Shown: piece after piece, positions 9,027 through 43,665 of the stretch | Numbering within the stretch: position 1 is the stretch's first letter | How the letters are laid out: each line of letters begins with the position of its first letter | From: a virus | Virus genome (UHGV): UHGV-0360526 | DNA: 43,707 nt | Strand: one strand, 5' to 3' | Notes under the pieces: generated by a model | Database searches by the model: none | What the model saw: only the letters and a program-made list of their open reading frames with translations | What the model was told of the DNA's origin: nothing | Program-made: the position numbers and the translations under genes

Positions 9027-9220
9027 AAATTTGGTTACCGATTCTAGTATTTATCCTTATCGCAGGGGCACTCGCAAGTGCTGAGTTAGATAGCCGTACT
9101 TTAGAAACGAAACGTGAGTTGTATCAGGACTGTATAAAGGATTATACTCCAGGTACAGAGCTTCATGCACAAGCTGTAAGAAGTTGTGCGCTGATGGCTG
9201 AAACGCAGACTCGTTCCTAA
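9023..9220 (+). CDS. small membrane or secreted protein
   Basis: 65-aa ORF with N-terminal hydrophobic segment KIWLPILVFILIAGALASA; ATGA overlap with upstream gene. Confidence 0.45.
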   Translation: MKIWLPILVFILIAGALASAELDSRTLETKRELYQDCIKDYTPGTELHAQAVRSCALMAETQTRS

Positions 9221-9594: not shown

Positions 9595-10028
9595 AAGTAA
9601 AAGCAACAATAGAAGTTATTCCTAAAAAGGAAATCGCAGTGTGTTCTGGTTTAATATTCGAGCAGCTGCGTAACGAATGCTATAACAGTGCCAACCCTGA
9701 AACGATATTTAGACGTCTATCGAGACATTGTCTAAATTACTGTCAAGTTGTTACGCCGACAAAGGATGGTGATATAGTCCAAGAACATTTGATTATTAAT
9801 GAACTCGTGGGTGGTGTTCTTAACAGAATGGAGCTTGAAGAAGTGAATGGTTCGTTAAAGCTTTATGCCGACTTTCGTCCATGTGGACCACTGGGTGATA
9901 AAGTAAATGAATTTATTCACGCGCACGGTTATGTAAACCTTAAACCACGTTTACACTATATCGATTCTAAAGTAGCTATGATTTCAACTATCGATATTGA
10001 CCTATCAAAACCTTCTGAAAATCACTAA
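9591..10028 (+). CDS. hypothetical protein (start at ATG overlapping upstream stop)
   Basis: ORF 9573-10028; ATG 9591 gives ATGA coupling. Confidence 0.5.
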   Translation: MKVKATIEVIPKKEIAVCSGLIFEQLRNECYNSANPETIFRRLSRHCLNYCQVVTPTKDGDIVQEHLIINELVGGVLNRMELEEVNGSLKLYADFRPCGPLGDKVNEFIHAHGYVNLKPRLHYIDSKVAMISTIDIDLSKPSENH

Positions 10029-10058
10029 CCGTCCTTGATTTTTAACTACAGAATAGTC

Positions 10059-10104
10059 TCCTACCGCCCGATTCTATGGGCGGTAGGAGTTTTTATTTTT
10101 TTTT
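10059..10104 (+). terminator. rho-independent terminator
   Basis: Stem ctcctaccgccc-gattctat-gggcggtaggag followed by tttttatttttttttg. Confidence 0.75.
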
Positions 10105-10120
10105 GATCTGGGAGGTTTTA

Positions 10121-10681
10121 GTGACTACTTACGTACCTGATTTAAGTCTGGCCTCAGCCGAATTGGTGGTCGCTTTAATCAACCACGATAACGGTTCACG
10201 GTTGTCTCTAAGCGAAATCCGTATTAGCAACACTACGGCAAACCCGTCCCCGACCACGTCGCGTCGTAACACAATGACAGAGATTACAAAAATCAGGAAA
10301 CCTGATGGCGCTTCTGTGGTTGTTTATTACGACCGTTTGGATGCGGACGAAGTGTTAGCGTCTGAACCTATTTTGATTTCGTTAGACGGTACTGAAGACA
10401 ACCTTCGCGACATTTTAGGTGTTGTAAATGAATTCTGCGGAACGAACTTACAACCCGAGGATTTACGTGCTTCAGATATCACCTTAGGTAACGAACCCAT
10501 TGCTGTTAACGTTGCCGACGATTCTCCTGCGTGGATGAATGCGTTTATGGTAACGTTATTCGATACAACCGAACGAGCATTAGCAAACGAAGATGATGCG
10601 ATCTTCTGTATTGGTGATGATGCTGTTCTTACCTTTGAGGTTCCAGATGACGACTCAGTTGAAGAAAACCCGGCTACATGA
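10121..10681 (+). CDS. hypothetical protein carrying a C-terminal domain shared with the 644-aa protein at 16081
   Basis: Listed ORF starts at 10076 inside the terminator hairpin; GTG at 10121 preceded by RBS ggagg is a more plausible start; C-terminus (YYDRL..CGTNLQPEDL..DDAVLTF) aligns with C-terminus of ORF 16081-18015. Confidence 0.5.
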   Translation: MTTYVPDLSLASAELVVALINHDNGSRLSLSEIRISNTTANPSPTTSRRNTMTEITKIRKPDGASVVVYYDRLDADEVLASEPILISLDGTEDNLRDILGVVNEFCGTNLQPEDLRASDITLGNEPIAVNVADDSPAWMNAFMVTLFDTTERALANEDDAIFCIGDDAVLTFEVPDDDSVEENPAT

Positions 10682-31628: not shown

Positions 31629-31641
31629 GAAAAAATAAAAA

Positions 31642-31682
31642 TACCTACCTCCTATTACGGGAGGTAGGTATACTTTTTTTTC
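31642..31682. terminator. bidirectional terminator between convergent genes
   Basis: Stem tacctacctcc-tattacg-ggaggtaggta with A-run upstream and T-run downstream; between plus-strand stop 31628 and minus-strand stop 31691. Confidence 0.8.
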
Positions 31683-31690
31683 GCTGTCGA

Positions 31691-32362
31691 TTACAGCCCT
31701 TGCTCTAACGCAAACGCTTTTATCGAATCGTAATCACGTGCTTCAGCCCAAGCCCTGACTTCTCTTTTCTGCTCAGACATTGCGTGGTGTAGTCTTTGAT
31801 CGCGCTCAACGATTGCTGCCAGCAACGTCTTGCACTGTTCTAACGTAAACGGTTCAATACGGGTGTTGTTAGCCGTTAACCAATACGCTGGCGCAGTTTC
31901 TGACTGAATATAACGACTCAGTGCTACCTGTGACTTCTCATCTGCCTGGAAAGTGAAATCACCTACCTGAATCTCAGCATAGCGTGCATCCTGATAACGG
32001 AATTCCAAAGCGCTTAGAATTTTCTGAACATCGGTAAAGATGTACCGCACCGTGGAACGTAAACCTGTACGAATTTCTTCCAGGTCAATCCCCAACGTGT
32101 CGTTAACAAAGTCTTTCGCTTTCTGTAGCGTAAACCGTGCTTCGATTTCAGACATGTCGTAGTTACGCATTTGTTCCAATGCTTCGCGATCAGACATCCC
32201 ATCAATCAACTTATAGTGCAGTAACGCACAAAACCCTGTACGGCCGTGATCTTCACTACCGATTTTCTCCATGTAGTTACCATGACGGTCAATCGGTAAA
32301 TCATGCGCAAAATAACGGCGACGGATTTCTTCTTTCGTTAAGCCTTCACCAGTAGCAGACAT
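31691..32362 (-). CDS. hypothetical protein (last gene of minus-strand operon)
   Basis: 223-aa ORF overlapping the start of the upstream gene. Confidence 0.55.
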   Translation of the reverse strand: MSATGEGLTKEEIRRRYFAHDLPIDRHGNYMEKIGSEDHGRTGFCALLHYKLIDGMSDREALEQMRNYDMSEIEARFTLQKAKDFVNDTLGIDLEEIRTGLRSTVRYIFTDVQKILSALEFRYQDARYAEIQVGDFTFQADEKSQVALSRYIQSETAPAYWLTANNTRIEPFTLEQCKTLLAAIVERDQRLHHAMSEQKREVRAWAEARDYDSIKAFALEQGL

Positions 32363-32910
32363 TCATCGTCTCCTTTAATCAACCCTAATTCGATTAACAA
32401 TTCAAAATCGATATGACGGAATCTTGTGTCGAAGTCCGATTCCCAATCGATACGGATACCCTGGCATTCTTCTGGCGTTAGCTCAGGAAAAATCACGGTA
32501 TTAAATTTCTCTCGCTCATCGTAAAACCCATCAATCGGTGAGTTCGGGTTACGTGTTGCGAAGATAGTAATGCCGGGGAAGGACAATGCCAACACAGTGA
32601 TAGATTCTGCGCTGGGTTCGCTTAAAGAGCGGCGTAGAAACGCAATTTTGTGACGTGGGAAATCCAATACCCGTTCTTCAAACCCTGGGTTACGTTTTTC
32701 AATTTCCGCGACCGACAGGTCAGTAAGTTCGGTGCAGTACATTGGGATGATTACAGTCACGCCGTGACGAATCAGTAAGCGTTTTACGTCATCGGTAAAA
32801 TCTTCACCGTTAATCACCACATAACAACCGAATAGCTTACTGTTTTCCAGAAACTTATCCAGAAGTCGAATTCTACGCTTCGTAATATTGTTGATCAGAA
32901 TTGGTTTCAT
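32338..32910 (-). CDS. hypothetical protein
   Basis: 190-aa ORF; start overlaps the 3' end of the radical SAM gene. Confidence 0.5.
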   Translation of the reverse strand: MKPILINNITKRRIRLLDKFLENSKLFGCYVVINGEDFTDDVKRLLIRHGVTVIIPMYCTELTDLSVAEIEKRNPGFEERVLDFPRHKIAFLRRSLSEPSAESITVLALSFPGITIFATRNPNSPIDGFYDEREKFNTVIFPELTPEECQGIRIDWESDFDTRFRHIDFELLIELGLIKGDDECLLLVKA

Positions 32911-34195
32911 CTTTGGCTTCTCTTAATAATTTTTCCTTTTGGGCACGTTCACGAACACAGCGTGGGCAATAACACATGCTCGTGTCGTGGAACGCTTTTG
33001 CTGACGTCGTACCCATCTTCTGTTTCCAGTATTCCGCCACCATCAGTTTCGCTGTCGTCCAGCCACACTGACGACGTTCAGCGTGATACGCTTTACGGTC
33101 TTCTAACGTTCCTTCCCCGTTCTCGTAAGAAGCCGCCGCACAGCTACCACAAGCGTGTTTCATCGGACAACCTAAACAGGTCTCTGGGTAGTTGGTATAT
33201 TGCGTTTGAATCTCTTCTAACAATTTACCGTTGTCCAGACTGACGAATTCCCGACCTACCAACTCAAACACCGCAGAACGCGACGTTACCGTTGACATAA
33301 AGCGGTTACAGCCAAAGATCTTACGGTCAAATCCTAAGCACGTCATGTGGGTTAACGTCCCGCAGAACGGACGTAAACGTTCTGGGTTCAACCGTACAGT
33401 GTCATTATACAGTAACTGGTCACGCCAGTTCGGTTCCCAAATCGTATCGAAATCCAACCCTTCTGGAATGATGTGCGATAAGATATTACGTGGATTGGTG
33501 TGTAATCCTTTTTCAACCCAATAATCTATCACATCCATCATCTGTAAAGCGATTGATGTCGCCATGCTACGCGGCATAACGTCTTCGAAGGTTACGTTCC
33601 CAGAAATTGTCCCACCGCCAGTAATGTCAATTAATGACTTCATCCCCGCAGCATAGAACGGCAGTGTTTCTAACGTAAAGGTCGCTTTTACGCCGAGTTC
33701 TGCAATACCAACCTCTTTTAAGTAATTATAGCCACGTACTGCGGCTTCGTAAGAACCCTGACGCGTCGTTGTGAAGATACGATAGCGGTCATGGGATTCA
33801 GGTAAACCATCAATCGAAACCCCAACCGAAAGTTTGTCTTTCCAACGTTCTACAATCTCACGGTTCAACGGACGATCTAACAGCGTTCCGTTCGTGGAGA
33901 TACTAAACATAAACGGTCGGTTGTGTTCTTTACACAACTGCTCAGCGGTTTCAAACGCAGCCAGCAGCAGTTTAGGCTGCATGAACGGTTCACCACCGAT
34001 AATGTCGATAATAACTTCGACATTCGGTTCGTTTTTATCACGTTCAAAACAGGCGTGTAAGAAATCAACAATGTCAGCCGCTTTGTTGTTACGTGGGTAC
34101 TTACGTTCGTAGCAATATTCGCAGTCCAGGTTACACGAAAGGTTGGTTACGATCTGATACGTTAACTGCTTAGGGAATTCATTTACTTGACTCAT
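32873..34195 (-). CDS. radical SAM enzyme with C-terminal SPASM-like domain (peptide-maturase-like)
   Basis: 440 aa; CNLDCEYC (CxxxCxxC) near N-terminus, GGEP SAM-binding motif, C-terminal Cys clusters CGTLTHMTCLGFDRKIFGCNRF and CLGCPMKHACGSCAAAS. Confidence 0.8.
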   Translation of the reverse strand: MSQVNEFPKQLTYQIVTNLSCNLDCEYCYERKYPRNNKAADIVDFLHACFERDKNEPNVEVIIDIIGGEPFMQPKLLLAAFETAEQLCKEHNRPFMFSISTNGTLLDRPLNREIVERWKDKLSVGVSIDGLPESHDRYRIFTTTRQGSYEAAVRGYNYLKEVGIAELGVKATFTLETLPFYAAGMKSLIDITGGGTISGNVTFEDVMPRSMATSIALQMMDVIDYWVEKGLHTNPRNILSHIIPEGLDFDTIWEPNWRDQLLYNDTVRLNPERLRPFCGTLTHMTCLGFDRKIFGCNRFMSTVTSRSAVFELVGREFVSLDNGKLLEEIQTQYTNYPETCLGCPMKHACGSCAAASYENGEGTLEDRKAYHAERRQCGWTTAKLMVAEYWKQKMGTTSAKAFHDTSMCYCPRCVRERAQKEKLLREAKDETNSDQQYYEA

Positions 34196-35102
34196 TTGCC
34201 GCCCCTCTATTACGTCCTGCCATCACTACGCGACGAATATATTCGTACGCCTCTACACCGATAGAGAAGGCCAGTTGGTTACATCCCGATTCCAGAACGT
34301 TAGGTGCATTCTGGAGTTGGTGCTCACCACCGTCTGCATTAATCCAAAGACTTTCGCTGCAAACGTTACACCCTTCTTCAAACACTTTACTTACTGTAAA
34401 GCCGCATTCACGACCATTTACTACATTCAGTCGTTCAATGTTGTCCTGAACCTGATAGTAGCCGTAAATAAAGTTCATGACGTGGTCAGGCGATAAAGGT
34501 TTTGGCATTTTCGCGTCTAAGAGTAACGTCATTGCACGGAAACCGTAATGGTAAATCGCGCTGTGCAGCTGAATAATATCTTCGTGCCAGCGTTTGTCCC
34601 CTAAACGGTCCCGTGTCAGGACACCCCAAGTCTGGACATTATCCAGCTCGTAGATCGTTTCCAGTGCTTCGTAACAGCCTTCGTCAATAAAGCGCATAAA
34701 CGGGCGCTCAGACGACTTAAACCCATCGATGCTAACGTAGACATTGTCAAACTGTTTTAGCAACGGGAGATGCGATTTACGCATCTTTAAGCCATTGGTA
34801 TACAACTGGTGTTTGAGTTCTGGACGAATCACTTTTAATTCGTCAACAAACGCCTCAATTTTACGGGTTGCCAGTAATGGCTCACCACCCGTCCACTGAA
34901 TTTCGGTAATGGTTGGATTAGCTTCCAGCGCTTCCAAAATTCGCTCACGTTGAAACTCTCGCGGAGAATCTTCACGATTCATGTAATAGGCTCCACCGCA
35001 GAAGCTACAATCCAGGTTACACTTGGACGTAGCGACTACGGACAATACGGTGGGTTTATCGTATAAACGATTCGATAACCTTGGTTCTGCATTGGTTGTC
35101 AT
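34179..35102 (-). CDS. radical SAM enzyme (second, shorter paralog-like)
   Basis: 307 aa; CNLDCSFC (CxxxCxxC), GGEPLL motif, C-terminal Cys residues ECG..GCNVCSES..GCNQ; 17-nt overlap with downstream rSAM gene. Confidence 0.75.
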   Translation of the reverse strand: MTTNAEPRLSNRLYDKPTVLSVVATSKCNLDCSFCGGAYYMNREDSPREFQRERILEALEANPTITEIQWTGGEPLLATRKIEAFVDELKVIRPELKHQLYTNGLKMRKSHLPLLKQFDNVYVSIDGFKSSERPFMRFIDEGCYEALETIYELDNVQTWGVLTRDRLGDKRWHEDIIQLHSAIYHYGFRAMTLLLDAKMPKPLSPDHVMNFIYGYYQVQDNIERLNVVNGRECGFTVSKVFEEGCNVCSESLWINADGGEHQLQNAPNVLESGCNQLAFSIGVEAYEYIRRVVMAGRNRGAANESSK

Positions 35103-35123
35103 TGCAGGTGACTCCGGTCGTTT

Positions 35124-36023
35124 TTAAATATAATCAATGGCGAACAAAGGATCGTCGTCTACGTTAGCACCAGGGGTTAACAAGAATGGAGAGTTATACG
35201 CTTCCAAAATACGATTAAGGTCTTTATAACGGACATTTAAACGTTCTAAATCCGCTAACGTTACGTTACGGTCCAACACCGCCGACACTGCTGCTTTCTC
35301 TTCGTCAGTTAACGTGACTTTCGTCATTAAGAAACTAACGAGTTTTGCCAGATCCGCTTCTGTTGACGGATGCTCGCCAATACGTGTTTGAATCAAATGC
35401 TGCATCCAAGGCTTACGGATGCGTTTTGTGATTTCGTGTTCATCCGTCAGGGCAACCCACACGGAACGTTCACGGTCCCACACGAACTTATAGCTGTACG
35501 CCATTAAATCCGCTAAGCAATTAATCCCTAACGCTTCGTACCCTTCAATTTCGATATACGATTCCGTATCGAAATAGTTCTTCGTTTCTGGTGTTACCAG
35601 AGTAAAGAAATACGGGAACGAGCCTAAGTAATCTGGCGACCACCAACGACGGGCAACCGGTTTTGCACCCATTTCTTCAAATGGGGTAAAGAACAATTCC
35701 ATATCTACGGAGTTATTCAAAATCCCGTCACTAAAGAAATATTTACCCGCAACCAGTTTACCACGCAACTCGGAGTCACCGGTAAAAACCACTACACTTT
35801 CTGCCGTCAGATCACGAATCTTAAACGTATTTTCTACACGATAGTTTTTACGATCGGTAAAGAAACGTCCGCGCACTTTAGGCCATTCGCCCGGCAACTG
35901 TGTCAGCAGACGAACTTCATCTGCTAAATGTGCACGTACGGAATCAGGGGAAGAAATGTGAAGTGGATGATTGAAAATTGTTTTGTACGCTAAATGTAAA
36001 TCATTCTTCATCGATTGCTCCAA
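35124..36023 (-). CDS. hypothetical protein between Cys-rich peptide genes and radical SAM genes
   Basis: 299-aa ORF with RBS ggag; no recognisable motif. Confidence 0.5.
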   Translation of the reverse strand: MEQSMKNDLHLAYKTIFNHPLHISSPDSVRAHLADEVRLLTQLPGEWPKVRGRFFTDRKNYRVENTFKIRDLTAESVVVFTGDSELRGKLVAGKYFFSDGILNNSVDMELFFTPFEEMGAKPVARRWWSPDYLGSFPYFFTLVTPETKNYFDTESYIEIEGYEALGINCLADLMAYSYKFVWDRERSVWVALTDEHEITKRIRKPWMQHLIQTRIGEHPSTEADLAKLVSFLMTKVTLTDEEKAAVSAVLDRNVTLADLERLNVRYKDLNRILEAYNSPFLLTPGANVDDDPLFAIDYI

Positions 36024-36160
36024 TTATTTCGCGGTCAAACGGACATTCAGGGTATAGAAACCACCGCACCATTACCTACCGGTAACTTGAAACTCAGTAG
36101 TAAACCCGTACGATTAACTCGGTTATTGCGTAATAGACATACTACCACTGGAGGGCTTAG

Positions 36161-36367
36161 TTACCTTCCCCCCGCACCTTTACTACAGCTACCACTGCAC
36201 GACCAGCTACATCCGCCGTTACAGTTATAATGGCTTAAAGGTAAACCGGCAAGGTTATTGGTTGAAGACACGGTGCCCTGGTTTGCAATATAGTTGTTTG
36301 CGTTAGCGGTCGTAATATACCCTTCCGCTGTTACTAACCGATCACGAAGGTTCTTAAGGCTAATCAC
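36161..36367 (-). CDS. CxxxC-repeat Cys-rich peptide 3 (short core)
   Basis: Listed ORF 36161-36433 overlaps peptide 2 out of frame; GTG at 36367 preceded by gggagg gives VISLKNLRDRL..., matching the leaders of peptides 1 and 2; core CNGGCSWSCSGSCSKGAGGR. Confidence 0.5.
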   Translation of the reverse strand: MISLKNLRDRLVTAEGYITTANANNYIANQGTVSSTNNLAGLPLSHYNCNGGCSWSCSGSCSKGAGGR

Positions 36368-36369
36368 AA

Positions 36370-36768
36370 TTACCTCCCAGAACAGCCACCGGAGCAAGCA
36401 CCAGAGCAGCCTGCAGAACAGTTTCCTACACACGAGTTAGAACAACTCCCCGTACAGCTTCCTGAACAGCCACCAGAACAGGTATTCGAACATCCACTAC
36501 AGCCTGCACTACAACCTGATACACAGTTTGCAGAACAGGAAGAACCACAGCCGCCTGATGCGTTCCCTGTACAACCACCAGAACAGCTCGAACAGGTCCA
36601 GCTACAGCTCCCACCACAGTCATAGTGGTTGCGAGCTTGCCCACCGAATAAGTCTGCGTTGTTCGTCGCTTTCCCACGAATATAGTTTTGTACTGCACCC
36701 GTATTCTTCAATGCAGTGTTGTCAATGTTATTTAGCCGCGCTTGTAGCGCAGGTAATCCAATTGCCAT
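36370..36768 (-). CDS. CxxxC-repeat Cys-rich peptide 2 (putative radical SAM substrate)
   Basis: 132 aa; ~50-aa leader MAIGLPALQARL... then ~80-aa core of about 20 Cys, mostly in C-x-x-x register with Ser/Gly between. Confidence 0.6.
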   Translation of the reverse strand: MAIGLPALQARLNNIDNTALKNTGAVQNYIRGKATNNADLFGGQARNHYDCGGSCSWTCSSCSGGCTGNASGGCGSSCSANCVSGCSAGCSGCSNTCSGGCSGSCTGSCSNSCVGNCSAGCSGACSGGCSGR

Positions 36769-36778
36769 TTTTCACCTC

Positions 36779-37177
36779 TTAGGTTGGGCCAGAACAGCCA
36801 CCGGAGCAAGCACCAGAACAACCCGTAGAACAACGGCCCGAGCAAGCACCTCCACAGGTCCCACTGCAACCTGAGCAGCCGCCGGAACACGTTGAACTAC
36901 ATCCAGTACACTGGTTACCACACGCGGATGAACAGCTACCTACACACACCGACGTACAGGTGCCCGAACAACTCGTACAGCCATGCGTACAACCGTTTGA
37001 GCACGTCCAGCTACAGCTTCCCCCGCAGTCTAACCGACTTGGCGTCCAACCCGAAAAAGTGTCGGCGGCATTATGTGCTTTCGACGCAACTTGCGGATCA
37101 ACACGTGGGCCAGTTGCCATTTGGTTCTCTACGTTGGTGATTCGGTCACGTACATTTTTAACACTGATCGCCATCAC
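36779..37177 (-). CDS. CxxxC-repeat Cys-rich peptide 1 (putative radical SAM substrate)
   Basis: 132 aa; leader MMAISVKNVRDRI...SRLDCGG then core with 21 Cys (CSWTCSNGCTHGC...CSGACSGGCSG); RBS aagga; ATG at 37174 also possible. Confidence 0.6.
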   Translation of the reverse strand: MMAISVKNVRDRITNVENQMATGPRVDPQVASKAHNAADTFSGWTPSRLDCGGSCSWTCSNGCTHGCTSCSGTCTSVCVGSCSSACGNQCTGCSSTCSGGCSGCSGTCGGACSGRCSTGCSGACSGGCSGPT

Positions 37178-37184
37178 GTATCCT

Positions 37185-37231
37185 TAAAATAAAAAAGAAT
37201 GGAGGACTACGCCCATAAGCATAGTTCCTCC
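37185..37231 (-). terminator. rho-independent terminator between fibre gene and Cys-rich peptide genes
   Basis: On minus strand: stem ggaggaact-atgcttatgggcgt-agtcctcc followed by attcttttttatttt, ending ~10 nt before the RBS of peptide 1. Confidence 0.65.
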
Positions 37232-37241
37232 TGTAATAAAG

Positions 37242-38441
37242 TTATTTCGTACCCGCTTCTGCCTGAACGTCATCACGGGACGTCAAGTTAGCGTTAACGT
37301 GCACTGGAGCCTGAACCACACCGCCGTATTTCTTGTGGAGATAACCTGTGTGCGGGTTATCCGCCGCAATATGGTTTTGTAGGTTCTGATTCGCCTGACT
37401 GATTGCGTTCGTGTTATTCGCAACCTGTTGTTTAAGCGCATCCAGGTTTTGTTGCAGATTATCAATTTTCTGATCGGACTCATTACCCCGTTGTTCTAAC
37501 GCAGCAATGCGCTGAATCGCTTGGTTGAGTTTGGTGTTCAGATCGTTGATATTTTTCTGTAACTGTAACACTAGCGAATTTAGGTTCGCCAATGCCAATG
37601 CCATCTTCTGGTAGTTTTGGGCAACGATGTTAAGTTGGTCGTTCCACGCTTCCAAAGATTTGACAACAGCATCAATACGTTTTCCTAACGCTTCGTCTGC
37701 TTTCTTCAACGCATTAATATCAGTAATGGTTGCATCGATGGCAGATTGTACGTCACGGATAAGTGCACGGATCTCCGTTTCTGTTAACCCGTTAACCTGA
37801 TGAATATCCAGATGGTGGACATTACCCGTGGCGTTAATGTGCGCGTTCAGCGCGTCCAGGAAATCGTTTTTCAGGCTTTCGAGAATCGCTTTGATGTTCT
37901 CAAGCTGTACAGCATCACCCGCCGTTATCGCATCTTTGATGCCAGCGAGCACTGTAATGATATATTCGAAGCCGTAAATATCGCCGACGTCTTTATACGT
38001 TGGTGCCGAAGGAAACGTGTCCGGCACATTTCGCAAGTCTTTAAAGCCAACAGTTCGATTATCGAGATTCAGCTCGGCAATCGCCTGTTCTATCGCGGGC
38101 ACGTTTGCCGACTGCGGACCCCCGACTACTTGCGCTGATACCGTGATATCGGTCGGAATCGCGGTGTTCGTTACAACAACCGCCATTACCACTTCCCGGT
38201 TCTTCGTCAATTTCTCGTAAGCCGGGTGTGCAAAAATCAACTCGTAGTCCGTTCCGCGCTCATACGTCGCGTCGGGTCGATTGGCAACCCGCAAGCGGAA
38301 CGTATCAGCATAAAACGGTCCGTCAGGAAAAGCAAACGCACGGTTAACTTTACCTGTACCTAACGTAATCTGACGCTCCACGGCGTTAGAGGTTAGGCTT
38401 CCCGTTAAATCTAAAGGGTATTGGTATACAATGGAGGCCAT
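37242..38441 (-). CDS. tail-fibre-like protein (N-terminal attachment domain plus long coiled coil)
   Basis: Listed ORF to 38549; ATG at 38441 with RBS aaggagag gives MASIVYQYPLDL; N-terminus shares the P-x-G-P-F-Y motif region with the 1727-aa protein; C-terminal half is heptad-rich. Confidence 0.6.
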   Translation of the reverse strand: MASIVYQYPLDLTGSLTSNAVERQITLGTGKVNRAFAFPDGPFYADTFRLRVANRPDATYERGTDYELIFAHPAYEKLTKNREVVMAVVVTNTAIPTDITVSAQVVGGPQSANVPAIEQAIAELNLDNRTVGFKDLRNVPDTFPSAPTYKDVGDIYGFEYIITVLAGIKDAITAGDAVQLENIKAILESLKNDFLDALNAHINATGNVHHLDIHQVNGLTETEIRALIRDVQSAIDATITDINALKKADEALGKRIDAVVKSLEAWNDQLNIVAQNYQKMALALANLNSLVLQLQKNINDLNTKLNQAIQRIAALEQRGNESDQKIDNLQQNLDALKQQVANNTNAISQANQNLQNHIAADNPHTGYLHKKYGGVVQAPVHVNANLTSRDDVQAEAGTK

Positions 38442-38481: not shown

Positions 38482-41400
38482 TTAAGATGTAAACATAAGA
38501 TTGAACTGGAGCTTATCGATATCGCGGGTTTGTGCTGGGTTAACCGCATCGTACGTGGTTGCCACGTAGACCGTTAATGTCCCGTCAGCAAACGAGGTTT
38601 TCACCGGTGGCGTAGTCCCTGTTTGTCCGTCGGTTACAATGACGACAGGTTGAGCCGGGAGTTGATGGAACTGACCCTTAACCGCTTTATACACCAAACC
38701 AGATTGTGCTGCTAACTCCGTGTCGGTATACACGATAAACGGTGTGTCGATATCTGTCTGTTTAATGACAGTGTTCGACTCAACGTCAATCAACTGAACA
38801 GCACCGAACTTCGTACGGTAGCTATCGTATTCATTTTTTGGAATGACAAACGTAGCATGTATACGGACTTCTTCGGCTGGCTTAAATCCGGCGTGTTCTT
38901 TTTCCAGATAACTGTTAGCGGTTAACGTTACTGTCTGTTCAGCCATCGTACCGCCAGACTGGTTTAACCCGTAACGAACTTGGGTTATACCTGTCGGAGC
39001 CGCAAGCCTGATTTTTAGTCTACGATTAGCGGTGCCGGGATTACCAGGCACTTTAACACGCAGACTCAGCGCCAGATATGCATTCGCACCGGTAGTCGGT
39101 TTCGTATACGCGCCCAACCACTTCATGTTCGCAGTTGCCGCTTGACTGTTCTCAGAAGCAGTAGCCGCAGCAACGTTTGCAGCAACCGCTTTCTGCCAGA
39201 ACTGGTCAGCGCAGTTTTCATACGCTACTCTACCGATACTTTTATAACCTGCGTAGGTTTCCTGTATCGGTAGCTTGGGTCGTGTTGTAACCCCGTTCAA
39301 CGCATTCCATTTCTGACCATCGACATACCCCGCACCATTACTCGCAGATGCCGTAGGGGCTTTCAGTGGTTGGTTAACTAAGGTTTGAAGTGGACCCGTT
39401 TTTCGATCGTACGCCGCTGCAACGTCGTGCTGATCTCTAACGGCAGCATGTTCTTCTAATTCACGAACCCTGCCTAGTCGTTTCACTTTATCGATGTTGA
39501 TAGCAACTATGCGCTTTTTATCGGTTGTAACTGTACCAACAAATAATCGCGAAGTCGTATCCGGCAGCTTTTCCAGACCGATCTGATATTGAGCCTTCGA
39601 ACCTACAAGAGCAGCATGAACATAGAACGTCTGGTTAGCATGGTTTTCTGGGAATTCGTTGCTTAAATCCACCGACCACGTCGGTAATGTATAGCTATTA
39701 CTACCGAAATCTAACCTGACCTCTTCCGTCAAGTATAGAATCCAACCTTCCGCGGTTTCCACGCCTGCGATAATAACTGCCTGCCCCGCTGTTGAGAATG
39801 TGGTATCATTAACGAACTCTTCGACTGTGTATGCGTTACCTGAACAGAAAACGCGGTCAGCTTTAGAGAAAATTCGTGCCATCTTGTCCCAATTACCCGC
39901 ACCCATGTAACAACCAGATTCTGGGTTGTGGGCAGGAGCCATCTGACGCAACTGTGACTTACCGGGAACTCGCGTCCAACCCGACCCAGGGTTAAAGGTA
40001 TACTTCGCAGCGTAACCCAAAGCATTTAGGTCCCCGATATTCCGTATTGTCAGCGTATAAGGTAGCCATAGACCGAAGTTTACACCGTCGGCAGAAGCAA
40101 AAATTGGCTGGCCTACACGTCGCGTTTTATTACCCGCTTCTTCCCTCAGAGACTGATAACTTAAGCCGTAATCAAGGTCTAAGAACCAATCTACCAGCTT
40201 AAAGGTTGCAGAATTAAAACGTAGATAACCGTTTTCTTTAGTCGGACTCACCATGAAGTAATAGATGTCGAGGACTCGACGTCCGTTACTCAAGGTTTTC
40301 ATGCATGAGACTTGTAATAAGTCGAACTCACAAACAGTGTTAATGCCTAGCAACCAGAGTGCAAACAACGCGTTGCCGCTTTGGTGTGCTGCGCTGATGC
40401 GCTCGTTCGCGTAACCGTTTGCTTGGCCAGATGGTGCACCATCGACAATCATCCTAATCATTTTCTGGCGATCCGCTTCCTCTAACGTCAGCCGTTCTGA
40501 TGACAGGGCAAAGTTACCGTAGATGTTCCGATATGGAAAGGTTTCCGCTTTCGTCAAATACCAACCATTTAACTGACCGTGACGCTCCTCAGGAGTCATA
40601 CATGCAGCCATACAGCTTAACTGTTCGTAAAGGGTTGCATCAACTTCTCGACGGTTGTTGTTCGGGCCATAACCGCTATATCCGGGAACGTCATAAGGTT
40701 TACTTGGGTCAACTTCTACTTCGATCGTATAGCGGTTGCGCGGATTGGATAACCATACTTTGTTTGAGCCACCGATACCAACAGGATGAGAAAGACCGAT
40801 GGTATAGATAGAACCACGACCTTTATCCCAAGTAAATGTTGCTTCGCCTGAGGTATTGTTTGGGTTATCATAACGCAGATAATCAAAAAACTCTTTGCCT
40901 TGCGTACTTTTAATAGTAACATTCGGCATCTGGTCCGCATCGTTAATCTGCCAGCAGGAAAGCATCATTCCTGAGACATTAGGTTTAGCATACGTCGCAA
41001 AACAACGATTGTTTGCTTGGCCGCCACCCCACTTACGACTGGTTTCTACAGTTGAGCCATCCGCGTACGATAGTCTGGTAGCATCAACCTTAATGGGGAA
41101 ACGTTCGGCACCCTCTAACGTAACTCTGCCCGTTAACGTATCGATTGTGAAACTTGTTGACCATTGACGGAAATTAATCGTCGTACCGTCGGCAGCCGCA
41201 AACCACACGCTGGGTACATGGTTCACACGAATCACGCTGTCGCGTACCGCACAAGCATGGTTACATTCTGGACCGTGAACAAAGTTGTGACCGATTGTCC
41301 ATTTAGCCCGTGCCTCTGGCGGGTAATACGTAAAGAACTGACCAGTCTGCGACTCTTCGGTCTTCTGGCCAATTCTTAGGCAGAGGTTATCTCCGAATTG

Positions 41401-43665
41401 CCCCATTTCTCCGGTTAGGGTTACACGTTCAAATTCTAACTCAGTATTGGTAGTCAAATCGGCTTTACGTAAACGCCATACCGCCACAGCATAAGCAGAG
41501 TTATTTACCGTGGAACGAAGAAGATAAACGTGGTCGTCAACTAACACAACATCGTCGGCTTCTGGCCAAGGATTCCAGGTTTGTTCCACAGTACCGCTGG
41601 GGTTGCCATTACGGTACTTAGGCATTGTAACACGACATACCACCGTGTGTTTACTGTGGTCCATCGAACCATTGAACAACACCAAATAACGGTTATTGTC
41701 AGAACCCAGACAAATAATCGCTTCCTGGCCACCGATCAATATCGCTTTTAAGGTCACCCCAGGGTATTTACTCATCCCAACAGGATGGTATTTCACCGAA
41801 GTTTGCTGAGGGTTCACAAACACATTCGACGTATTGATATCAGCATAGCCGTAGTAAATCGCCTCTGTACCAGGTACGCCATTAGAAGCATTACGTAACG
41901 AATAAACTTTACCTTGTTGATATCCTACAACACCTTTCTGATAGGACTGGTTCTTTGTAAAACCTGAATAATTACCGAGCGCCGGAATGGGTAAGAAGTT
42001 TTTGTTACCGAACTTCGCCCCACCGACAGTCCACGCAGGTAAGATGGTATTCAGTTTATCAGAAACTTTCTTGATCTCTTTTGCGAACAACCACCCTTGA
42101 CGCGAAGTGACAGCTTTATCGTTCGTGGTATCAATCGCATCCCACAACTGTAAGATACCATCCACAGTCGCACTGCCAATCGGGACATTATCCAAATCGG
42201 CGGTAGTGTGCGTGTGCTCCTTCACACTTTTATTTTTCAGCACATTCGCTAACGCTTTTGTTACCGGTTTAGCGATCGGCATGGTGTTTTCCATCTTATC
42301 GATACCGAAATCGGTTTTCGTTAAGGTTAACACCATTTTATCGCCTGTCTTAACAAACCCTTTACCGTTAACCGTGTAGTCATCGTCAACGTACAAGTCT
42401 AACCGGTCTTTTAATTCGGTCACCGCCTTTTGGGAAATAGCAGTGCCTAGTGCTACGGAGGTTGCGATATTCGTAATCGAAAACACCCCATAAACCGACT
42501 CGGTTGCTGTGGGAATATTCGCGTTCAACGTTAGCGGATTAGACTGCTTCGCTGTACCGTACGGTTTTACGGTGTCTGATGGTTTGAAATAGGCGTTCGC
42601 TTCAAGTAACGTTACAGACGTCAGGTACATGTTCACCATTTCTGGTGTAACCAAATACACAGAGTTGTAAACCGGCGCTAATACATCTTGTTCTGTCCCA
42701 GAGTGTACCCAAAGCGTATTCAGCCCCGCACTAAATTCAACCGCCAAACCCGATTCGTTGTTGTCCTGGTCTGCTTTAATCACCAACGGTTGCGGTGAGG
42801 TAATTAACCACTTATCACCACGGATACTGATGATGTGTCCGCCTGCGGTTTTAAACGTCAGTTCGTTACCGTTCGTGCTGCCCCATCGACCGTAAACAGT
42901 GCCGAGGGCTTCACCCATTAACTGATCAACGTCTGATTGCTCAATACCCGCCGAACCCATCAGCGTAGCCAATTCGTCAATCGTCAGTCCAAACGCTTTT
43001 GTAGCGTCGACAGCACGTCCCAAAACCGGAAGGGCACCAACATCAGTGGTCGTATACTGGTGTGCGTTAGGATTAAGGTGGTGTTGGTATAACTCCTCGT
43101 CGAAAACCTTTTTACCGTTCTCGTAAATCAGGTTAGTGACTTCGGTAAACGCTGCATCTAACTCTGTTGAACGTTGAACGATTTTCTTACGGATGTCGTT
43201 TAACGCTTTAACAACCTCATCCCTCAGAATAGCTTCTTCTAAGTTAGCAGGAGGATCGATGGGTTGAATAACTGGCGCATACGCCATTAACTCTGACCAG
43301 TCCACGTTACGTGGGTCTTTCAGGTCAGTACGAACTAAGAACTTTCCGATTTCAGATTGTGGTACACGATACTGGCGTGCTACCCCTAAAATCTCATATT
43401 CGATTTCTGTTGCGGTCAGCAACATGAACCCGCCATAAATCTGATCTTGTTCAGCTTCTGCGAGTTCTTTAAAGTAATAGCCTAAATAGTAGTCCAACCC
43501 CTCAATCAGAGTACGACGTCCGTTAGGCGCGGTATCGTCGGCTACTGTGAGTTTTAATCCGATACGATAAAAAGGTCCTTCAGGCGGAATGACCACATTA
43601 AATCGGTTAGGGTACGTCGCTGTGCTTAACGTACCGTTAAACTGCGCCGCGTCTTCTCTCGGCAT
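38482..43665 (-). CDS. giant virion protein (1727 aa), putative tailspike / receptor-binding protein
   Basis: Single uninterrupted ORF; N-terminal region (NRFNVVIPPEGPFYRIGLKLTV) homologous to N-terminus of the adjacent fibre-like protein; RBS aggagt; remainder unassigned. Confidence 0.6.
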   Translation of the reverse strand: MPREDAAQFNGTLSTATYPNRFNVVIPPEGPFYRIGLKLTVADDTAPNGRRTLIEGLDYYLGYYFKELAEAEQDQIYGGFMLLTATEIEYEILGVARQYRVPQSEIGKFLVRTDLKDPRNVDWSELMAYAPVIQPIDPPANLEEAILRDEVVKALNDIRKKIVQRSTELDAAFTEVTNLIYENGKKVFDEELYQHHLNPNAHQYTTTDVGALPVLGRAVDATKAFGLTIDELATLMGSAGIEQSDVDQLMGEALGTVYGRWGSTNGNELTFKTAGGHIISIRGDKWLITSPQPLVIKADQDNNESGLAVEFSAGLNTLWVHSGTEQDVLAPVYNSVYLVTPEMVNMYLTSVTLLEANAYFKPSDTVKPYGTAKQSNPLTLNANIPTATESVYGVFSITNIATSVALGTAISQKAVTELKDRLDLYVDDDYTVNGKGFVKTGDKMVLTLTKTDFGIDKMENTMPIAKPVTKALANVLKNKSVKEHTHTTADLDNVPIGSATVDGILQLWDAIDTTNDKAVTSRQGWLFAKEIKKVSDKLNTILPAWTVGGAKFGNKNFLPIPALGNYSGFTKNQSYQKGVVGYQQGKVYSLRNASNGVPGTEAIYYGYADINTSNVFVNPQQTSVKYHPVGMSKYPGVTLKAILIGGQEAIICLGSDNNRYLVLFNGSMDHSKHTVVCRVTMPKYRNGNPSGTVEQTWNPWPEADDVVLVDDHVYLLRSTVNNSAYAVAVWRLRKADLTTNTELEFERVTLTGEMGQFGDNLCLRIGQKTEESQTGQFFTYYPPEARAKWTIGHNFVHGPECNHACAVRDSVIRVNHVPSVWFAAADGTTINFRQWSTSFTIDTLTGRVTLEGAERFPIKVDATRLSYADGSTVETSRKWGGGQANNRCFATYAKPNVSGMMLSCWQINDADQMPNVTIKSTQGKEFFDYLRYDNPNNTSGEATFTWDKGRGSIYTIGLSHPVGIGGSNKVWLSNPRNRYTIEVEVDPSKPYDVPGYSGYGPNNNRREVDATLYEQLSCMAACMTPEERHGQLNGWYLTKAETFPYRNIYGNFALSSERLTLEEADRQKMIRMIVDGAPSGQANGYANERISAAHQSGNALFALWLLGINTVCEFDLLQVSCMKTLSNGRRVLDIYYFMVSPTKENGYLRFNSATFKLVDWFLDLDYGLSYQSLREEAGNKTRRVGQPIFASADGVNFGLWLPYTLTIRNIGDLNALGYAAKYTFNPGSGWTRVPGKSQLRQMAPAHNPESGCYMGAGNWDKMARIFSKADRVFCSGNAYTVEEFVNDTTFSTAGQAVIIAGVETAEGWILYLTEEVRLDFGSNSYTLPTWSVDLSNEFPENHANQTFYVHAALVGSKAQYQIGLEKLPDTTSRLFVGTVTTDKKRIVAINIDKVKRLGRVRELEEHAAVRDQHDVAAAYDRKTGPLQTLVNQPLKAPTASASNGAGYVDGQKWNALNGVTTRPKLPIQETYAGYKSIGRVAYENCADQFWQKAVAANVAAATASENSQAATANMKWLGAYTKPTTGANAYLALSLRVKVPGNPGTANRRLKIRLAAPTGITQVRYGLNQSGGTMAEQTVTLTANSYLEKEHAGFKPAEEVRIHATFVIPKNEYDSYRTKFGAVQLIDVESNTVIKQTDIDTPFIVYTDTELAAQSGLVYKAVKGQFHQLPAQPVVIVTDGQTGTTPPVKTSFADGTLTVYVATTYDAVNPAQTRDIDKLQFNLMFTS

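What the first reader, a model, noticed from the sequence alone, without database searches (positions are those of the whole stretch)
32873..37177. Phage-borne radical SAM / CxxxC-repeat peptide cluster embedded in a tail-fibre module
Three tandem genes for Cys-rich proteins (about 20 Cys each in the two long ones, mostly spaced C-x-x-x with Ser/Gly) lie immediately upstream of a 299-aa unknown gene and two radical SAM genes (CNLDCEYC and CNLDCSFC, GGEP motifs; the larger with SPASM-like C-terminal Cys clusters). The genes are co-directional and tightly packed (the two rSAM genes overlap by 17 nt). Cys-repeat peptides paired with rSAM/SPASM maturases are a known bacterial RiPP-type arrangement (I recall a 'CXXX repeat peptide' class but cannot verify it here). 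I do not know of such a system described in a phage tail-fibre region. Products could be crosslinked virion components, a bacteriocin-like factor or a host-directed effector.
Basis: partly seen in the sequence, partly recalled or inferred. Interest (0 to 1): 0.92.

Follow-up and report, generated by a model that had tools for sequence, protein, structure and literature searches.

The report
Cysteine-repeat tail-fibre proteins with radical-SAM maturases
A giant phage encodes three small proteins made largely of Cys-x-x-x repeats next to two radical SAM enzymes inside its tail-fibre genes; in unrelated phages the same repeat is the C-terminal end of the tail fibre itself, so it is most likely an enzyme-crosslinked fibre part, a kind of virion modification I could not find described.

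Summary
On the minus strand lie three paralogous Cys-repeat genes (131, 132 and 68 aa; 21, 20 and 4 Cys), a 295-aa unknown gene, a 307-aa radical SAM gene and a 440-aa radical SAM/SPASM gene. They sit between tail proteins (homologues of SPN3US gp168 and gp167) and a DUF4376 gene, and a terminator closes the block.

The window is an SPN3US-like jumbo phage. The Cys-repeat genes are conserved with a fixed Cys count and are under purifying selection in the Cys frame. They are missing or called in the wrong frame in SPN3US and in Erwinia phage pEa_SNUABM_29.

The key result comes from distant homologues of the SPASM enzyme (31-40% identity) in P2-like and lambda-like prophages and viral contigs. 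They again follow tail-fibre genes and pair with a homologue of the 295-aa protein. There the Cys repeat is the C-terminal domain of the tail-fibre protein itself. Of 80 viral loci with a related enzyme, 75 carry such a repeat, against 3 of 71 control loci.

The best reading is a fibre component crosslinked by phage radical SAM enzymes, not a secreted RiPP. The chemistry, probably thioethers, is inferred. The system is related to the uncharacterised CXXX-repeat family (TIGR04114/04115) but falls below its cut-offs. I found no literature on it.

The parts
38482..43665 (-). 1727-aa tail protein, homologue of SPN3US gp168. It is the first gene of the co-directional block.
   Evidence: ORF. It matches phrog_7449 over its full length. 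SPN3US gp168 is a tail protein similar to phiKZ gp131, which lies at the baseplate periphery and fibres (PMC5105663). gp168 was detected in the virion (PMC5694885 Suppl. Table 1).
37242..38441 (-). ~399-aa coiled-coil virion protein, homologue of SPN3US gp167. The ORF extends to 38549, but the start at Met37 agrees with the relatives.
   Evidence: It matches phrog_2163 'virion structural protein' at 8e-103 from residue 36. Coiled-coil-type hits cover 255-395. gp167 is an abundant non-head virion protein in SPN3US.
36779..37174 (-). CysA: 131 aa, made of an N-terminal ~50-aa helical segment and a 78-aa Cys-x-x-x repeat with 21 Cys.
   Evidence: It matches phrog_6085 at 1.5e-40. All 13 relatives examined have 21 Cys. 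pN/pS is 0.24-0.33 in this frame. It is not annotated in SPN3US.
36370..36768 (-). CysB: 132 aa, a paralogue of CysA with 20 Cys.
   Evidence: It matches phrog_6085 at 2.5e-39. It scores 19.4 bits against TIGR04114 (cut-off 20). pN/pS is 0.26-0.31. SPN3US gp166 is a wrong-frame call of this gene.
36161..36367 (-). CysC: 68 aa, a short paralogue with the same N-terminal segment and junction motif (HYNCNGGCSWSC) but only 4 Cys.
   Evidence: It has a GTG start preceded by GGGAGG. Orthologues were found in 9 of the 11 relatives scanned, with 2-4 Cys. It matches phrog_6085 at 2.3e-24.
35124..36011 (-). 295-aa accessory protein, homologue of SPN3US gp165. It is the strictly co-occurring third component of the system and has an unknown fold.
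34179..35102 (-). 307-aa radical SAM enzyme with CNLDCSFC, GGEP and a C-terminal C-x-x-C ... G-C motif.
   Evidence: Pfam Radical_SAM scores 53 bits. The closest solved relative is SkfB (6efn, E 3e-6). It is homologous to the prophage partners (E 2e-15). It is fused to the SPASM enzyme in P0109 and L110. The conserved C-terminal Cys are shown.
32873..34195 (-). 440-aa radical SAM/SPASM enzyme, the presumed main maturase of the Cys-repeat proteins.
   Evidence: Pfam Radical_SAM scores 57 bits. PapB scores 116.8 and TIGR04115 scores 114.7 bits, and the TIGR04115 alignment covers 10-371 of the protein. The SPASM Cys are conserved. The closest solved relative is CteB (5wgg, E 6e-14).
32338..32910 (-). 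190-aa unknown protein, homologue of SPN3US gp162. It overlaps the SPASM gene by 38 nt and is conserved downstream in the jumbo relatives.
   Evidence: It matches phrog_7988. Whether it belongs to the system is not established.
31691..32362 (-). 223-aa DUF4376 protein, homologue of SPN3US gp161. It is the last gene of the block and has weak tail-fibre-family matches.
   Evidence: Pfam DUF4376 at 5e-11. phrog_8169, with weak hits to tail fibre phrog_1807.
31641..31671 (.). Bidirectional intrinsic-terminator-like hairpin with a 12-13 bp stem and T runs on both sides. It closes the minus-strand block.
   Evidence: No other minus-strand terminator-like site was reported between 43665 and 31691.

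Best explanation
The cluster is a tail-fibre maturation module.

CysA, CysB and CysC are small fibre-tip-like proteins. Each has a short N-terminal helical (probably coiled-coil) segment and a fibre-type junction motif (NAD-x-F/L-x-G-Q ... Y-x-C-x-G-S/T-C-S-W-S/T-C). A long run of C-S/T-G-x units follows.

Late in infection, in the host cytoplasm, the 440-aa rSAM/SPASM enzyme would act on the Cys-repeat region before or during fibre assembly. The 307-aa rSAM enzyme would help it, and the two are fused into one protein in some phages. The 295-aa accessory protein is possibly a substrate-presenting partner, because the enzyme has no N-terminal recognition domain.

The most likely chemistry is many intramolecular Cys-derived thioether crosslinks. 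These would turn a Gly/Ser-rich, otherwise unstructured tail into a covalently laddered, reduction-insensitive and protease-resistant rod or knob. This part would stay in the virion at the distal end of a fibre.

What is shown: gene content, conservation, purifying selection, strict co-occurrence of enzyme, accessory protein and repeat, and fusion of the repeat to tail-fibre proteins elsewhere.

What is inferred: that the enzymes modify the repeats, the type of bond, that CysA-C are in the virion, and the role of the 295-aa protein.
For: 1. Enzyme and repeat co-occur far beyond this phage.
- 75 of 80 viral loci with a related rSAM/SPASM carry a Cys-x2-3 repeat ORF within 6 kb. In the listing most lie on the enzyme's strand, ending within about 2 kb upstream of it.
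- Only 3 of 71 control loci around other rSAM families do.

2. In the enzyme's own clade the module is constant. All 31 loci have the repeat and a homologue of the 295-aa protein. 26 also have the small rSAM, and it is fused to the SPASM enzyme in L110.

3. The repeat is part of tail fibres.
- In a Campylobacter pinnipediorum P2-like prophage, the 384-aa fibre (Pfam Phage_tail_fib, 1.8e-40) ends in GCNGCSGSCSGSCSSGCTACSGCSGSC.
- In a Deferribacter abyssi lambda-like prophage, a 302-aa fibre-repeat protein ends in about 100 aa of the repeat. It shows the window's junction motif, YYRCSDCSWTCSS.
- L105, L110, L103 and L111 combine PHROG tail-fibre families (2e-40, 3e-32, 2e-10, 2e-9). All but L105 also match phrog_6085, the family of CysA-C, at their C-terminus; L105's C-terminal repeat was found by pattern only.
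- The upstream genes are GpJ/Phage-tail_3, or Baseplate_J plus Tail_P2_I.

4. The window's genes lie in one co-directional block between tail proteins and a terminator. Their SPN3US homologues gp167-gp173 are virion proteins, while gp161-gp165 were not detected, as expected for enzymes or chaperones.

5. The Cys count is fixed: 21 in CysA across six genera, while the residues between the Cys vary. pN/pS is about 0.3.

6. The nearest characterised relatives of both enzymes make Cys thioethers. By profile these are PapB, SCIFF and QhpD. By solved structure they are CteB (5wgg) and SkfB (6efn). Their chemistry is taken from established knowledge of those enzymes.

7. No peptidase or exporter is present in the block.
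Against: - No experiment shows modification, and none shows CysA-C in any virion.
- The SPN3US virion proteomes could not have found them, because the genes were not in the search database. A ~80-residue core with almost no Lys or Arg would also escape tryptic MS.
- The repeats contain no Asp or Glu, which are the acceptors used by PapB and QhpD. The bond type is therefore open.
- The AF2 model of CysB is uninformative (pLDDT 46.5).
- The fold of the 295-aa protein matches nothing known, so its role is a guess.
- In the jumbo phages the repeat sits on separate small proteins, so the fibre association rests on homology with the fused forms and on gene position.
- Canonical bacterial CXXX systems (L015, L017, L019) lie beside ABC exporters. 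Related enzymes therefore do make exported peptides.
Confidence: 0.55

Rival explanations
1. It is a classical RiPP. CysA-C are precursors whose N-terminal ~50 aa is a leader. The rSAM enzymes crosslink the core, the leader is removed, and the product is released at lysis. It would then act as a bacteriocin-like, signalling or host-directed peptide and would not be part of the virion.
For: - The enzyme is closest to peptide maturases: PapB, TIGR04115, SCIFF and CcpM.
- The precursor layout resembles a leader followed by a core.
- Bacterial CXXX systems with exporters exist (L015, L017, L019).
- Acidobacterial versions carry twin-arginine-type signals (L021).
Against: - The block has no protease or transporter.
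- In this enzyme clade the 'leader' is a real tail-fibre protein in other phages.
- The position after fibre, J or baseplate genes holds in three unrelated tail types.
- The Cys number is fixed across genera. I take this to be unusual for repeat RiPPs (my own inference).
Confidence: 0.12
2. The Cys repeats are metal- or Fe-S-binding, or disulfide-bonded, structural elements that need no enzymatic modification. This would be comparable to the metal-binding tips of T4 fibres. The rSAM enzymes would act on something else, such as another fibre residue or a small molecule.
For: - Tail fibres commonly bind metals along their axis (T4 gp37 and gp12; established knowledge).
- A protein with 16% Cys could chelate metals.
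- No acidic acceptor residues occur in the repeats.
Against: - The repeat co-occurs almost strictly with this one enzyme lineage: 75 of 80 loci against 3 of 71 controls.
- The repeat, the 295-aa protein and the enzyme co-occur in 31 of 31 clade loci.
- Both enzymes are nearest to Cys-thioether formers.
- Spacing of i,i+4 in Gly/Ser-rich sequence is not a known metal site (my own inference).
Confidence: 0.12
3. The Cys-repeat module is an assembly device that is later discarded. It would act as a trimerisation nucleus or an intramolecular-chaperone-like domain, and the separate CysA-C proteins would be trans-acting chaperones. The rSAM enzymes would make it functional only transiently.
For: - The module occupies the genomic place where fibre chaperones (P2 G, lambda Tfa, T4 gp38) usually lie (gene order known from those phages).
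- C-terminal chaperone domains that are cleaved off are known in fibres and tailspikes (established knowledge).
- gp161-gp166 were not detected in the SPN3US virion.
Against: - The non-detection is uninformative for CysA-C, which were not in the database.
- No protease domain adjoins the repeat.
- Investing one or two rSAM enzymes and up to 92 Cys (L114) in a disposable domain seems costly.
- The repeat length is conserved as in a structural ruler.
Confidence: 0.1
4. It is an artefact. The Cys-rich ORFs are chance open frames in GC-rich repetitive DNA, and the published annotations in other frames or on the other strand are right.
For: SPN3US and pEa_SNUABM_29 annotate other frames or strands here. 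Several frames are open across the repeat.
Against: - pN/pS is 0.24-0.39 in the Cys frame, against 0.8-4.4 in the other frames.
- Shine-Dalgarno sequences and start codons are present.
- The N-terminal segments and the Cys count are conserved across six genera.
- A PHROG family exists for these proteins.
- The same domain is fused in frame to fibre proteins.
Confidence: 0.01

Closest known systems
CXXX-repeat peptide system of NCBIfam/TIGRFAMs (TIGR04114 target, TIGR04115 rSAM/SPASM maturase, TIGR04116 partner). It was defined in silico, and I found no biochemical study of it.
   Same: - The target consists of tandem Cys-x-x-x units next to an rSAM/SPASM enzyme that has no N-terminal recognition domain.
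- The window's enzyme aligns to TIGR04115 over almost the full profile.
- Phage contigs include a true member: L114 scores 434 bits next to a protein with 92 Cys.
   Different: - The window's enzyme scores 114.7 bits against a cut-off of 350. CysB scores 19.4 against a cut-off of 20.
- No TIGR04116 protein is present.
- The partners are instead a 295-aa protein of a small separate family (44 cluster representatives) and a second rSAM enzyme.
- No exporter is present.
- The target is a tail-fibre module or is fused to a tail fibre.
PapB/freyrasin and other ranthipeptide or SCIFF maturases (CteB, PDB 5wgg)
   Same: - PapB is the best-scoring profile family (116.8 bits), and CteB is the closest solved structure (E 6e-14).
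- Their substrates are Cys-rich and receive several thioether links. PapB acts on repeated C-x3-D units (established knowledge).
   Different: - The score is below the PapB cut-off of 340.
- No Asp or Glu acceptors occur in the repeats.
- There is no RRE domain: CteB residues 1-104 have no counterpart.
- The substrate is a 68-480 aa protein tied to the virion, not a short exported peptide.
QhpD/QhpC, in which an rSAM/SPASM enzyme crosslinks the small subunit of quinohemoprotein amine dehydrogenase
   Same: An rSAM/SPASM enzyme installs Cys thioethers in a protein that remains a structural subunit of a larger assembly (established knowledge). TIGR03906 is among the hits (61 bits, up to 117 bits for phage relatives).
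   Different: The similarity is distant. QhpC has three links to Asp or Glu, not a 20-unit repeat. It is not viral.
SkfB (PDB 6efn), a twitch-domain rSAM thioether synthase
   Same: It is the closest solved relative of the 307-aa enzyme (E 3e-6). Both have a short C-terminal Cys motif in place of a full SPASM domain.
   Different: The similarity is weak and covers only the rSAM core. No function has been shown for the phage enzyme. It is dispensable in some phages (L103, L105, L108).
Tail-fibre assembly chaperones, and covalent virion crosslinks such as HK97 capsid chainmail
   Same: The genes lie directly after the fibre gene, where chaperones are encoded. The idea that covalent crosslinks harden a virion part is established for HK97 (established knowledge).
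   Different: Known fibre chaperones are not enzymes. HK97 crosslinks are autocatalytic isopeptides. An enzyme-made, radical-SAM-dependent crosslink in a virion protein was not found in the literature searched.

Membership tests
Radical SAM superfamily (both enzymes) | CX3CX2C cluster motif and a match to Pfam PF04055 above the gathering score | tested here: met
   CNLDCEYC scores 57 bits and CNLDCSFC scores 53 bits, against a cut-off of 29.5. Cys21, Cys25 and Cys28 are invariant in 17 homologues.
SPASM subgroup (440-aa enzyme) | C-terminal seven-Cys pattern for auxiliary Fe-S clusters (CX9-15GX4C ... CX2CX5CX3C ... C) | tested here: met
   Cys278/286, G288, Cys296, Cys340-x2-Cys343-x5-Cys349-x2-Cys352 and Cys377 are invariant or nearly so. 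The full-length alignment to SPASM maturase profiles runs through this region. Caveats: the last spacing is x2 rather than x3, and Pfam's SPASM model gave no hit at E<=0.01.
CXXX-repeat system (TIGR04114/04115/04116) | Maturase reaches the TIGR04115 cut-off of 350 bits | tested here: not met
   It scores 114.7 bits. Relatives in the same clade score 112-195 bits. More distant phage enzymes score 262-434 bits, and only L114 passes.
CXXX-repeat system (TIGR04114/04115/04116) | Target protein with tandem CXXX repeats (TIGR04114 cut-off 20 bits) | tested here: inconclusive
   CysB scores 19.4 bits. CysA and CysC have no hit at E<=0.01. By direct inspection, 86% of Cys spacings are exactly 4.
CXXX-repeat system (TIGR04114/04115/04116) | ~90-aa TIGR04116 partner protein encoded next to the maturase | tested here: not met
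   None of the nine proteins of the block matches it. The model does work on a bacterial locus, scoring 89.6 bits on L017. hhalign of the 295-aa family against that protein gives 5% probability.
PapB-type ranthipeptide system | Maturase reaches the NF047865 cut-off of 340 bits | tested here: not met
   It scores 116.8 bits.
PapB-type ranthipeptide system | Substrate with C-x3-D/E units (acidic acceptor residues) | tested here: not met
   No Asp or Glu was found at any position between Cys in 434 units from 11 phages.
RiPP (general definition) | Leader removed by a protease and product released or exported | not testable with these tools
   No peptidase or transporter family matched any protein of the block. 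Cleavage itself needs experiment.
RiPP (general definition) | Precursor actually modified by the neighbouring enzyme | not testable with these tools
   Only co-occurrence is available.
Phage tail-fibre protein (for CysA-C) | Homology to, or physical fusion with, recognised tail-fibre proteins | tested here: met
   The phrog_6085 module of CysA-C forms the C-terminus of proteins that also match tail-fibre PHROGs (L110, L103, L111). L105 matches tail-fibre PHROGs and carries the repeat by pattern only. The Campylobacter prophage protein matching Pfam Phage_tail_fib likewise ends in the repeat.
Phage tail-fibre protein (for CysA-C) | Presence in the virion | not tested
   The published SPN3US virion proteomes used an annotation without these genes.

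The most novel reading that the evidence does not exclude
Many tailed phages build the distal end of a tail fibre from a Cys-x-x-x repeat, and phage-encoded radical SAM enzymes convert it into a ladder of thioether (or other radical-made) crosslinks. The phages include jumbo phiKZ-like, P2-like and lambda-like types, from Enterobacteria, Campylobacter, Deferribacter and gut Clostridia. This would be the first enzyme-installed, radical-SAM-dependent covalent modification of a virus structural protein. It would give the orphan CXXX-repeat maturase family a biological role. It would also define a new type of redox-insensitive receptor-binding or fibre-stiffening structure.
Probability: 0.45. Interest if true: 0.9.

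Novelty: new variant of a known kind. Interest (0 to 1): 0.8.

Why it matters
If the reading is right, phages use radical SAM chemistry to manufacture a part of the virion, not to reprogramme host metabolism or make a secreted peptide.

Consequences if true:
- It would be a new way to stabilise an extracellular protein where disulfides are unreliable, as in reducing, anaerobic habitats. This link to habitat is my inference.
- It would give a first function to a widespread family that was predicted only in silico: CXXX repeats with their rSAM/SPASM maturase.
- It would flag three conserved genes that are missing or mis-called in SPN3US and pEa_SNUABM_29 and patchily annotated in other relatives. 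SPN3US is the genetic model for this phage group, so its proteomics and structural work has been blind to them.
- The system is directly testable in SPN3US with Salmonella.
- The enzymes could be of use for making multiply crosslinked repeat proteins.

Tried and rejected
- Structure of CysB. AF2 with 16 homologues gave pLDDT 46.5, with only an N-terminal helix predicted. It says nothing about the repeat.
- The genome-contig scan was swamped by the generic CNLxCxYC motif. It missed the prophages found through the protein search. Only L013-L021 were informative, and L022-L092 were reused as a control set.
- Pfam family PF27846 is listed on many CXXX-tailed relatives. It is not in the local Pfam copy, so it could not be identified.
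- Campylobacter CP220-type phage rSAM genes match only the rSAM core at about 22% identity. I set them aside as unrelated.
- The 149-nt spacer between CysC and the 295-aa gene has no stable fold (z = 0.34) and no match in phages.
- The sigma-70 promoter scan was at background level. It is not meaningful for a phage with its own RNA polymerases.
- All ten literature searches found nothing on this system.

Full report
**What is in the window**

The finding's coordinates (32873-37177) hold six co-directional genes on the minus strand.

| Gene | Coordinates | Size | Notes |
|---|---|---|---|
| CysA | 36779-37174 | 131 aa | 21 Cys |
| CysB | 36370-36768 | 132 aa | 20 Cys |
| CysC | 36161-36367 | 68 aa | 4 Cys; GTG start after GGGAGG |
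| Unknown gene | 35124-36011 | 295 aa | see correction below |
| rSAM gene | 34179-35102 | 307 aa | CNLDCSFC, GGEP |
| rSAM gene | 32873-34195 | 440 aa | CNLDCEYC, GGEP |

The orthologues show the shorter forms.
- The block continues upstream with a 1727-aa protein and a ~399-aa coiled-coil protein.
- It continues downstream with overlapping 190-aa and 223-aa (DUF4376) genes.
- It ends at a strong bidirectional terminator-like hairpin at 31641-31671.

**Which phage this is**

- The window is from an SPN3US-like (phiKZ-related) jumbo phage.
- The 440-aa protein is 100% identical on the 225-kb contig IMGVR_UViG_3300029126_000001.
- It is 82% identical to SPN3US gp163 and 60-83% identical to proteins of Erwinia, Cronobacter, Escherichia and Proteus jumbo phages.
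- Gene order is the same in Seoulvirus, Erskinevirus, Wellingtonvirus, Derbicusvirus and Machinavirus.
- In SPN3US the upstream genes gp168 and gp167 are tail-associated virion proteins. gp168 resembles phiKZ gp131, located at the baseplate periphery and fibres (PMC5105663).
- gp167-gp173 were detected in purified virions, whereas gp161-gp166 were not (PMC5694885 Suppl. Table 1).
- 'Embedded in a tail or tail-fibre module' is therefore correct.

**The Cys-rich genes are real genes**

- All relatives examined encode CysA and CysB, and CysC orthologues were found in 9 of the 11 relatives scanned. CysA has 21 Cys in every one. CysB has 20-23, although the residues between the Cys vary.
- Of 440 Cys-Cys spacings, 378 are 4 and 56 are 3. 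The unit is C-[S>G>T]-[G>S>A]-[G/S/T/N], with no acidic residue.
- Between the window and four relatives, pN/pS is 0.24-0.39 in the Cys frame and 0.8-4.4 in the other two. This holds in the N-terminal 50 codons and in the repeat.
- All three proteins belong to one PHROG of unknown function, phrog_6085.
- Annotation is poor. SPN3US gp166 is a wrong-frame call of CysB, and CysA and CysC are not called. Erwinia phage pEa_SNUABM_29 annotates opposite-strand ORFs over CysA and CysB.
- As a result, the published SPN3US proteomes could not have detected these proteins.

**The enzymes**

*The 440-aa enzyme*
- It matches Pfam Radical_SAM.
- Among NCBIfam models it scores best against PapB ranthipeptide maturases (116.8 bits) and the CXXX-repeat maturase TIGR04115 (114.7 bits, aligned over residues 10-371). 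Both scores are far below the curated cut-offs of 340 and 350.
- An alignment of 17 homologues down to 28% identity keeps the three rSAM Cys and a SPASM-type set: C278/286/296, C340-x2-C343-x5-C349-x2-C352 and C377.
- Its closest solved relative is the SCIFF thioether synthase CteB (5wgg, E 6e-14). The alignment starts at CteB residue 105, so the phage enzyme lacks CteB's N-terminal peptide-recognition domain.

*The 307-aa enzyme*
- It is an rSAM protein with a conserved C-terminal C-x(1-2)-C ... G-C motif.
- Its closest solved relative is the thioether synthase SkfB (6efn, E 3e-6).

*The 295-aa protein*
- It gives a confident model (pLDDT 86.5, pTM 0.81).
- An exhaustive profile search of 1.84 billion cluster representatives finds only 44 relatives.

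**The decisive evidence comes from distant relatives**

The protein search found homologues of the 440-aa enzyme at 33-40% identity in bacterial genomes. Both cases examined are prophages.

*Campylobacter pinnipediorum, P2-like prophage*
- The gene order is baseplate J, tail protein I, a 384-aa fibre, a 250-aa protein, the rSAM/SPASM enzyme, a small rSAM, DUF1353 and sheath.
- The fibre matches Pfam Phage_tail_fib (1.8e-40) and ends in ...GCNGCSGSCSGSCSSGCTACSGCSGSCSGK....

*Deferribacter abyssi, lambda-like prophage*
- GpJ is followed by a 302-aa protein with fibre repeats. It ends in about 100 aa of Cys repeat.
- The repeat is introduced by GGQAGSYYRCSDCSWTCSS, the same junction as the window's CysB (FGGQARNHYDCGGSCSWTCSS).
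- A 250-aa protein, a small rSAM and the rSAM/SPASM enzyme follow.

*Homology of the partners*
- The 250-aa proteins are homologues of the window's 295-aa protein (E 3e-10 and, weakly, 0.028).
- The small rSAMs are homologues of the 307-aa enzyme (E 2e-15).

**How general the association is**

- A scan of IMG/VR gave 80 loci with related enzymes. 75 carry a Cys-x2-3 repeat ORF within 6 kb. Most are on the same strand and just upstream.
- Only 3 of 71 loci around rSAM enzymes of other families do (0.88 Mb).
- With local HMMs, all 31 loci of the window's enzyme clade contain the repeat and a homologue of the 295-aa protein.
  - 26 contain the small rSAM.
  - It is fused to the SPASM enzyme in L110, as in protein P0109.
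  - It is absent from L103, L105 and L108.
- The repeat-bearing proteins L105, L110, L103 and L111 match tail-fibre PHROGs (2e-40, 3e-32, 2e-10, 2e-9). L110, L103 and L111 also match phrog_6085 at their C-terminus.
- Their upstream neighbours are GpJ/Phage-tail_3, or Baseplate_J plus Tail_P2_I.
- The module therefore travels with tail-fibre genes in at least three unrelated tail architectures. The phrog_6085 domain of CysA-C is a C-terminal tail-fibre domain.
- In sequenced phages, the 440-aa enzyme's orthologues (64 records covering at least 80% of it), the CysB N-terminus (62 records) and the 295-aa protein (62 full-length records) occur in the same set of taxa.

**Relation to the known CXXX family**

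- The more distant viral enzymes (24-28% identity) score 262-434 bits on TIGR04115. One, L114, passes the cut-off and sits beside a 480-aa protein with 92 Cys.
- Classical bacterial loci (L015, L017, L019) have a ~700-aa enzyme, ABC exporters and small neighbouring partner proteins. The L017 partner matches TIGR04116 at 89.6 bits.
- The window's system lacks TIGR04116 and any exporter. It uses a different accessory protein and a second rSAM.
- It is therefore a separate, phage tail-associated branch of the same broad kind, not a member by the curated criteria.

**Most likely mechanism**

- CysA-C look like minimal fibre ends. Each has a helix at residues 5-34, predicted at low confidence (pLDDT 49-68). 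That region aligns with the segment just upstream of the repeat in longer homologues. The fibre junction motif and the repeat follow.
- I infer that the rSAM/SPASM enzyme crosslinks the repeat in the cytoplasm, helped by the small rSAM and the 295-aa protein. The product would be incorporated at the distal part of a fibre.
- Thioether formation is favoured because every characterised near relative of either enzyme forms Cys thioethers (PapB, CteB/SCIFF, QhpD, SkfB). That statement rests on established knowledge of those enzymes.
- The acceptor residue is unknown, because the usual Asp or Glu acceptors are absent. The conserved Trp in C-S-W-S/T-C leaves room for a different link at that site.
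- None of this is shown experimentally.

**Rivals**

- A secreted RiPP is disfavoured by the fusions, the gene position and the lack of a protease or exporter.
- An unmodified metal-binding element is disfavoured by the near-strict co-occurrence with the enzyme.
- A disposable assembly domain cannot be excluded.
- A non-coding artefact is excluded by the selection analysis.

**Literature**

All ten full-text searches found nothing that links radical SAM enzymes to tail fibres or describes the Cys-repeat genes. Terms included SPN3US, radical SAM, tail fiber/fibre, SPASM, thioether, ranthipeptide, CXXX repeat and TIGR04115. The library does not cover most subscription journals, so prior description cannot be ruled out.

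**Verdict**

The system is best described as a new, phage tail-fibre-associated variant of the CXXX-repeat/rSAM-SPASM kind. It is widespread, unannotated in the model phage and directly testable.

Noticed in passing
L002 (SPN3US NC_027402) 9115-10144; L001 (pEa_SNUABM_29) 14031-15053: The three Cys-repeat genes are mis-annotated in published genomes. SPN3US gp166 is a wrong-frame ORF over CysB, and CysA and CysC are not called. pEa_SNUABM_29 genes 267 and 268 are opposite-strand ORFs. Other relatives annotate them only patchily.
   Followed up: yes
window 37178-37241, minus strand: The spacer between the gp167-like gene and CysA holds a GGAGGAC...GTCCTCC hairpin with a loop of about 16 nt. ATTCTTTTTTATTTT follows it, and there are two TATG motifs. 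It could be an attenuator or terminator, or a phage late-promoter region. The terminator scan allows loops of at most 8 nt, so it did not report this site.
   Followed up: no
window 36012-36160: A 149-nt non-coding spacer lies between CysC and the 295-aa gene. SPN3US and pEa_SNUABM_29 have only about 20-30 nt here. It has no stable fold (z = 0.34) and no match in the phage collection.
   Followed up: yes
window 37242-38441 and 38482-43665: The gp167-like protein and the N-terminal ~580 aa of the 1727-aa protein both match phrog_2163 (8e-103 and 2e-42). The small virion protein therefore looks like a paralogue of the N-terminal part of the large one.
   Followed up: partly
P0109 (668 aa) and L110 5131-7191 (686 aa): In some phages the small rSAM and the rSAM/SPASM enzyme are fused into one polypeptide. 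This argues that the two enzymes of the window work together.
   Followed up: partly
L114 3786-5228, L013 and L014 about 4400-6300: Some CXXX proteins are extreme. A viral one has 480 aa and 92 Cys. In Margulisbacteria/Termititenax genomes, Cys-repeat runs recur in one frame over about 1.4 kb next to related enzymes, and there they include Asp, Glu and Lys.
   Followed up: no
proteins P0165, P0166, P0171, P0174 and others: Many CXXX-tailed relatives carry a precomputed Pfam family, PF27846.1. It is absent from the local Pfam copy, so its name and definition could not be read.
   Followed up: partly
L021 5842-6938 (Acidobacteriaceae MAG): Two CXXX-tailed proteins with twin-arginine-like signal sequences (RRQFLR...) lie directly upstream of a related 391-aa rSAM enzyme. 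This is an apparently exported bacterial version of the system.
   Followed up: no
window 11001-12000, inside the 1532-aa ORF at 10888-15486: AT skew is unusually high here (0.26, against 0.15 or less in absolute value everywhere else in the window) and GC is 0.50. This suggests a compositionally odd or repetitive segment of a large protein gene.
   Followed up: no
Salmonella phage SPFM records (e.g. LR535904-LR535917): Several SPFM genomes give only fragmentary tblastn matches to the rSAM and 295-aa genes, while their near-identical sisters match over the full length. This is consistent with frameshift-rich assemblies rather than gene loss.
   Followed up: no
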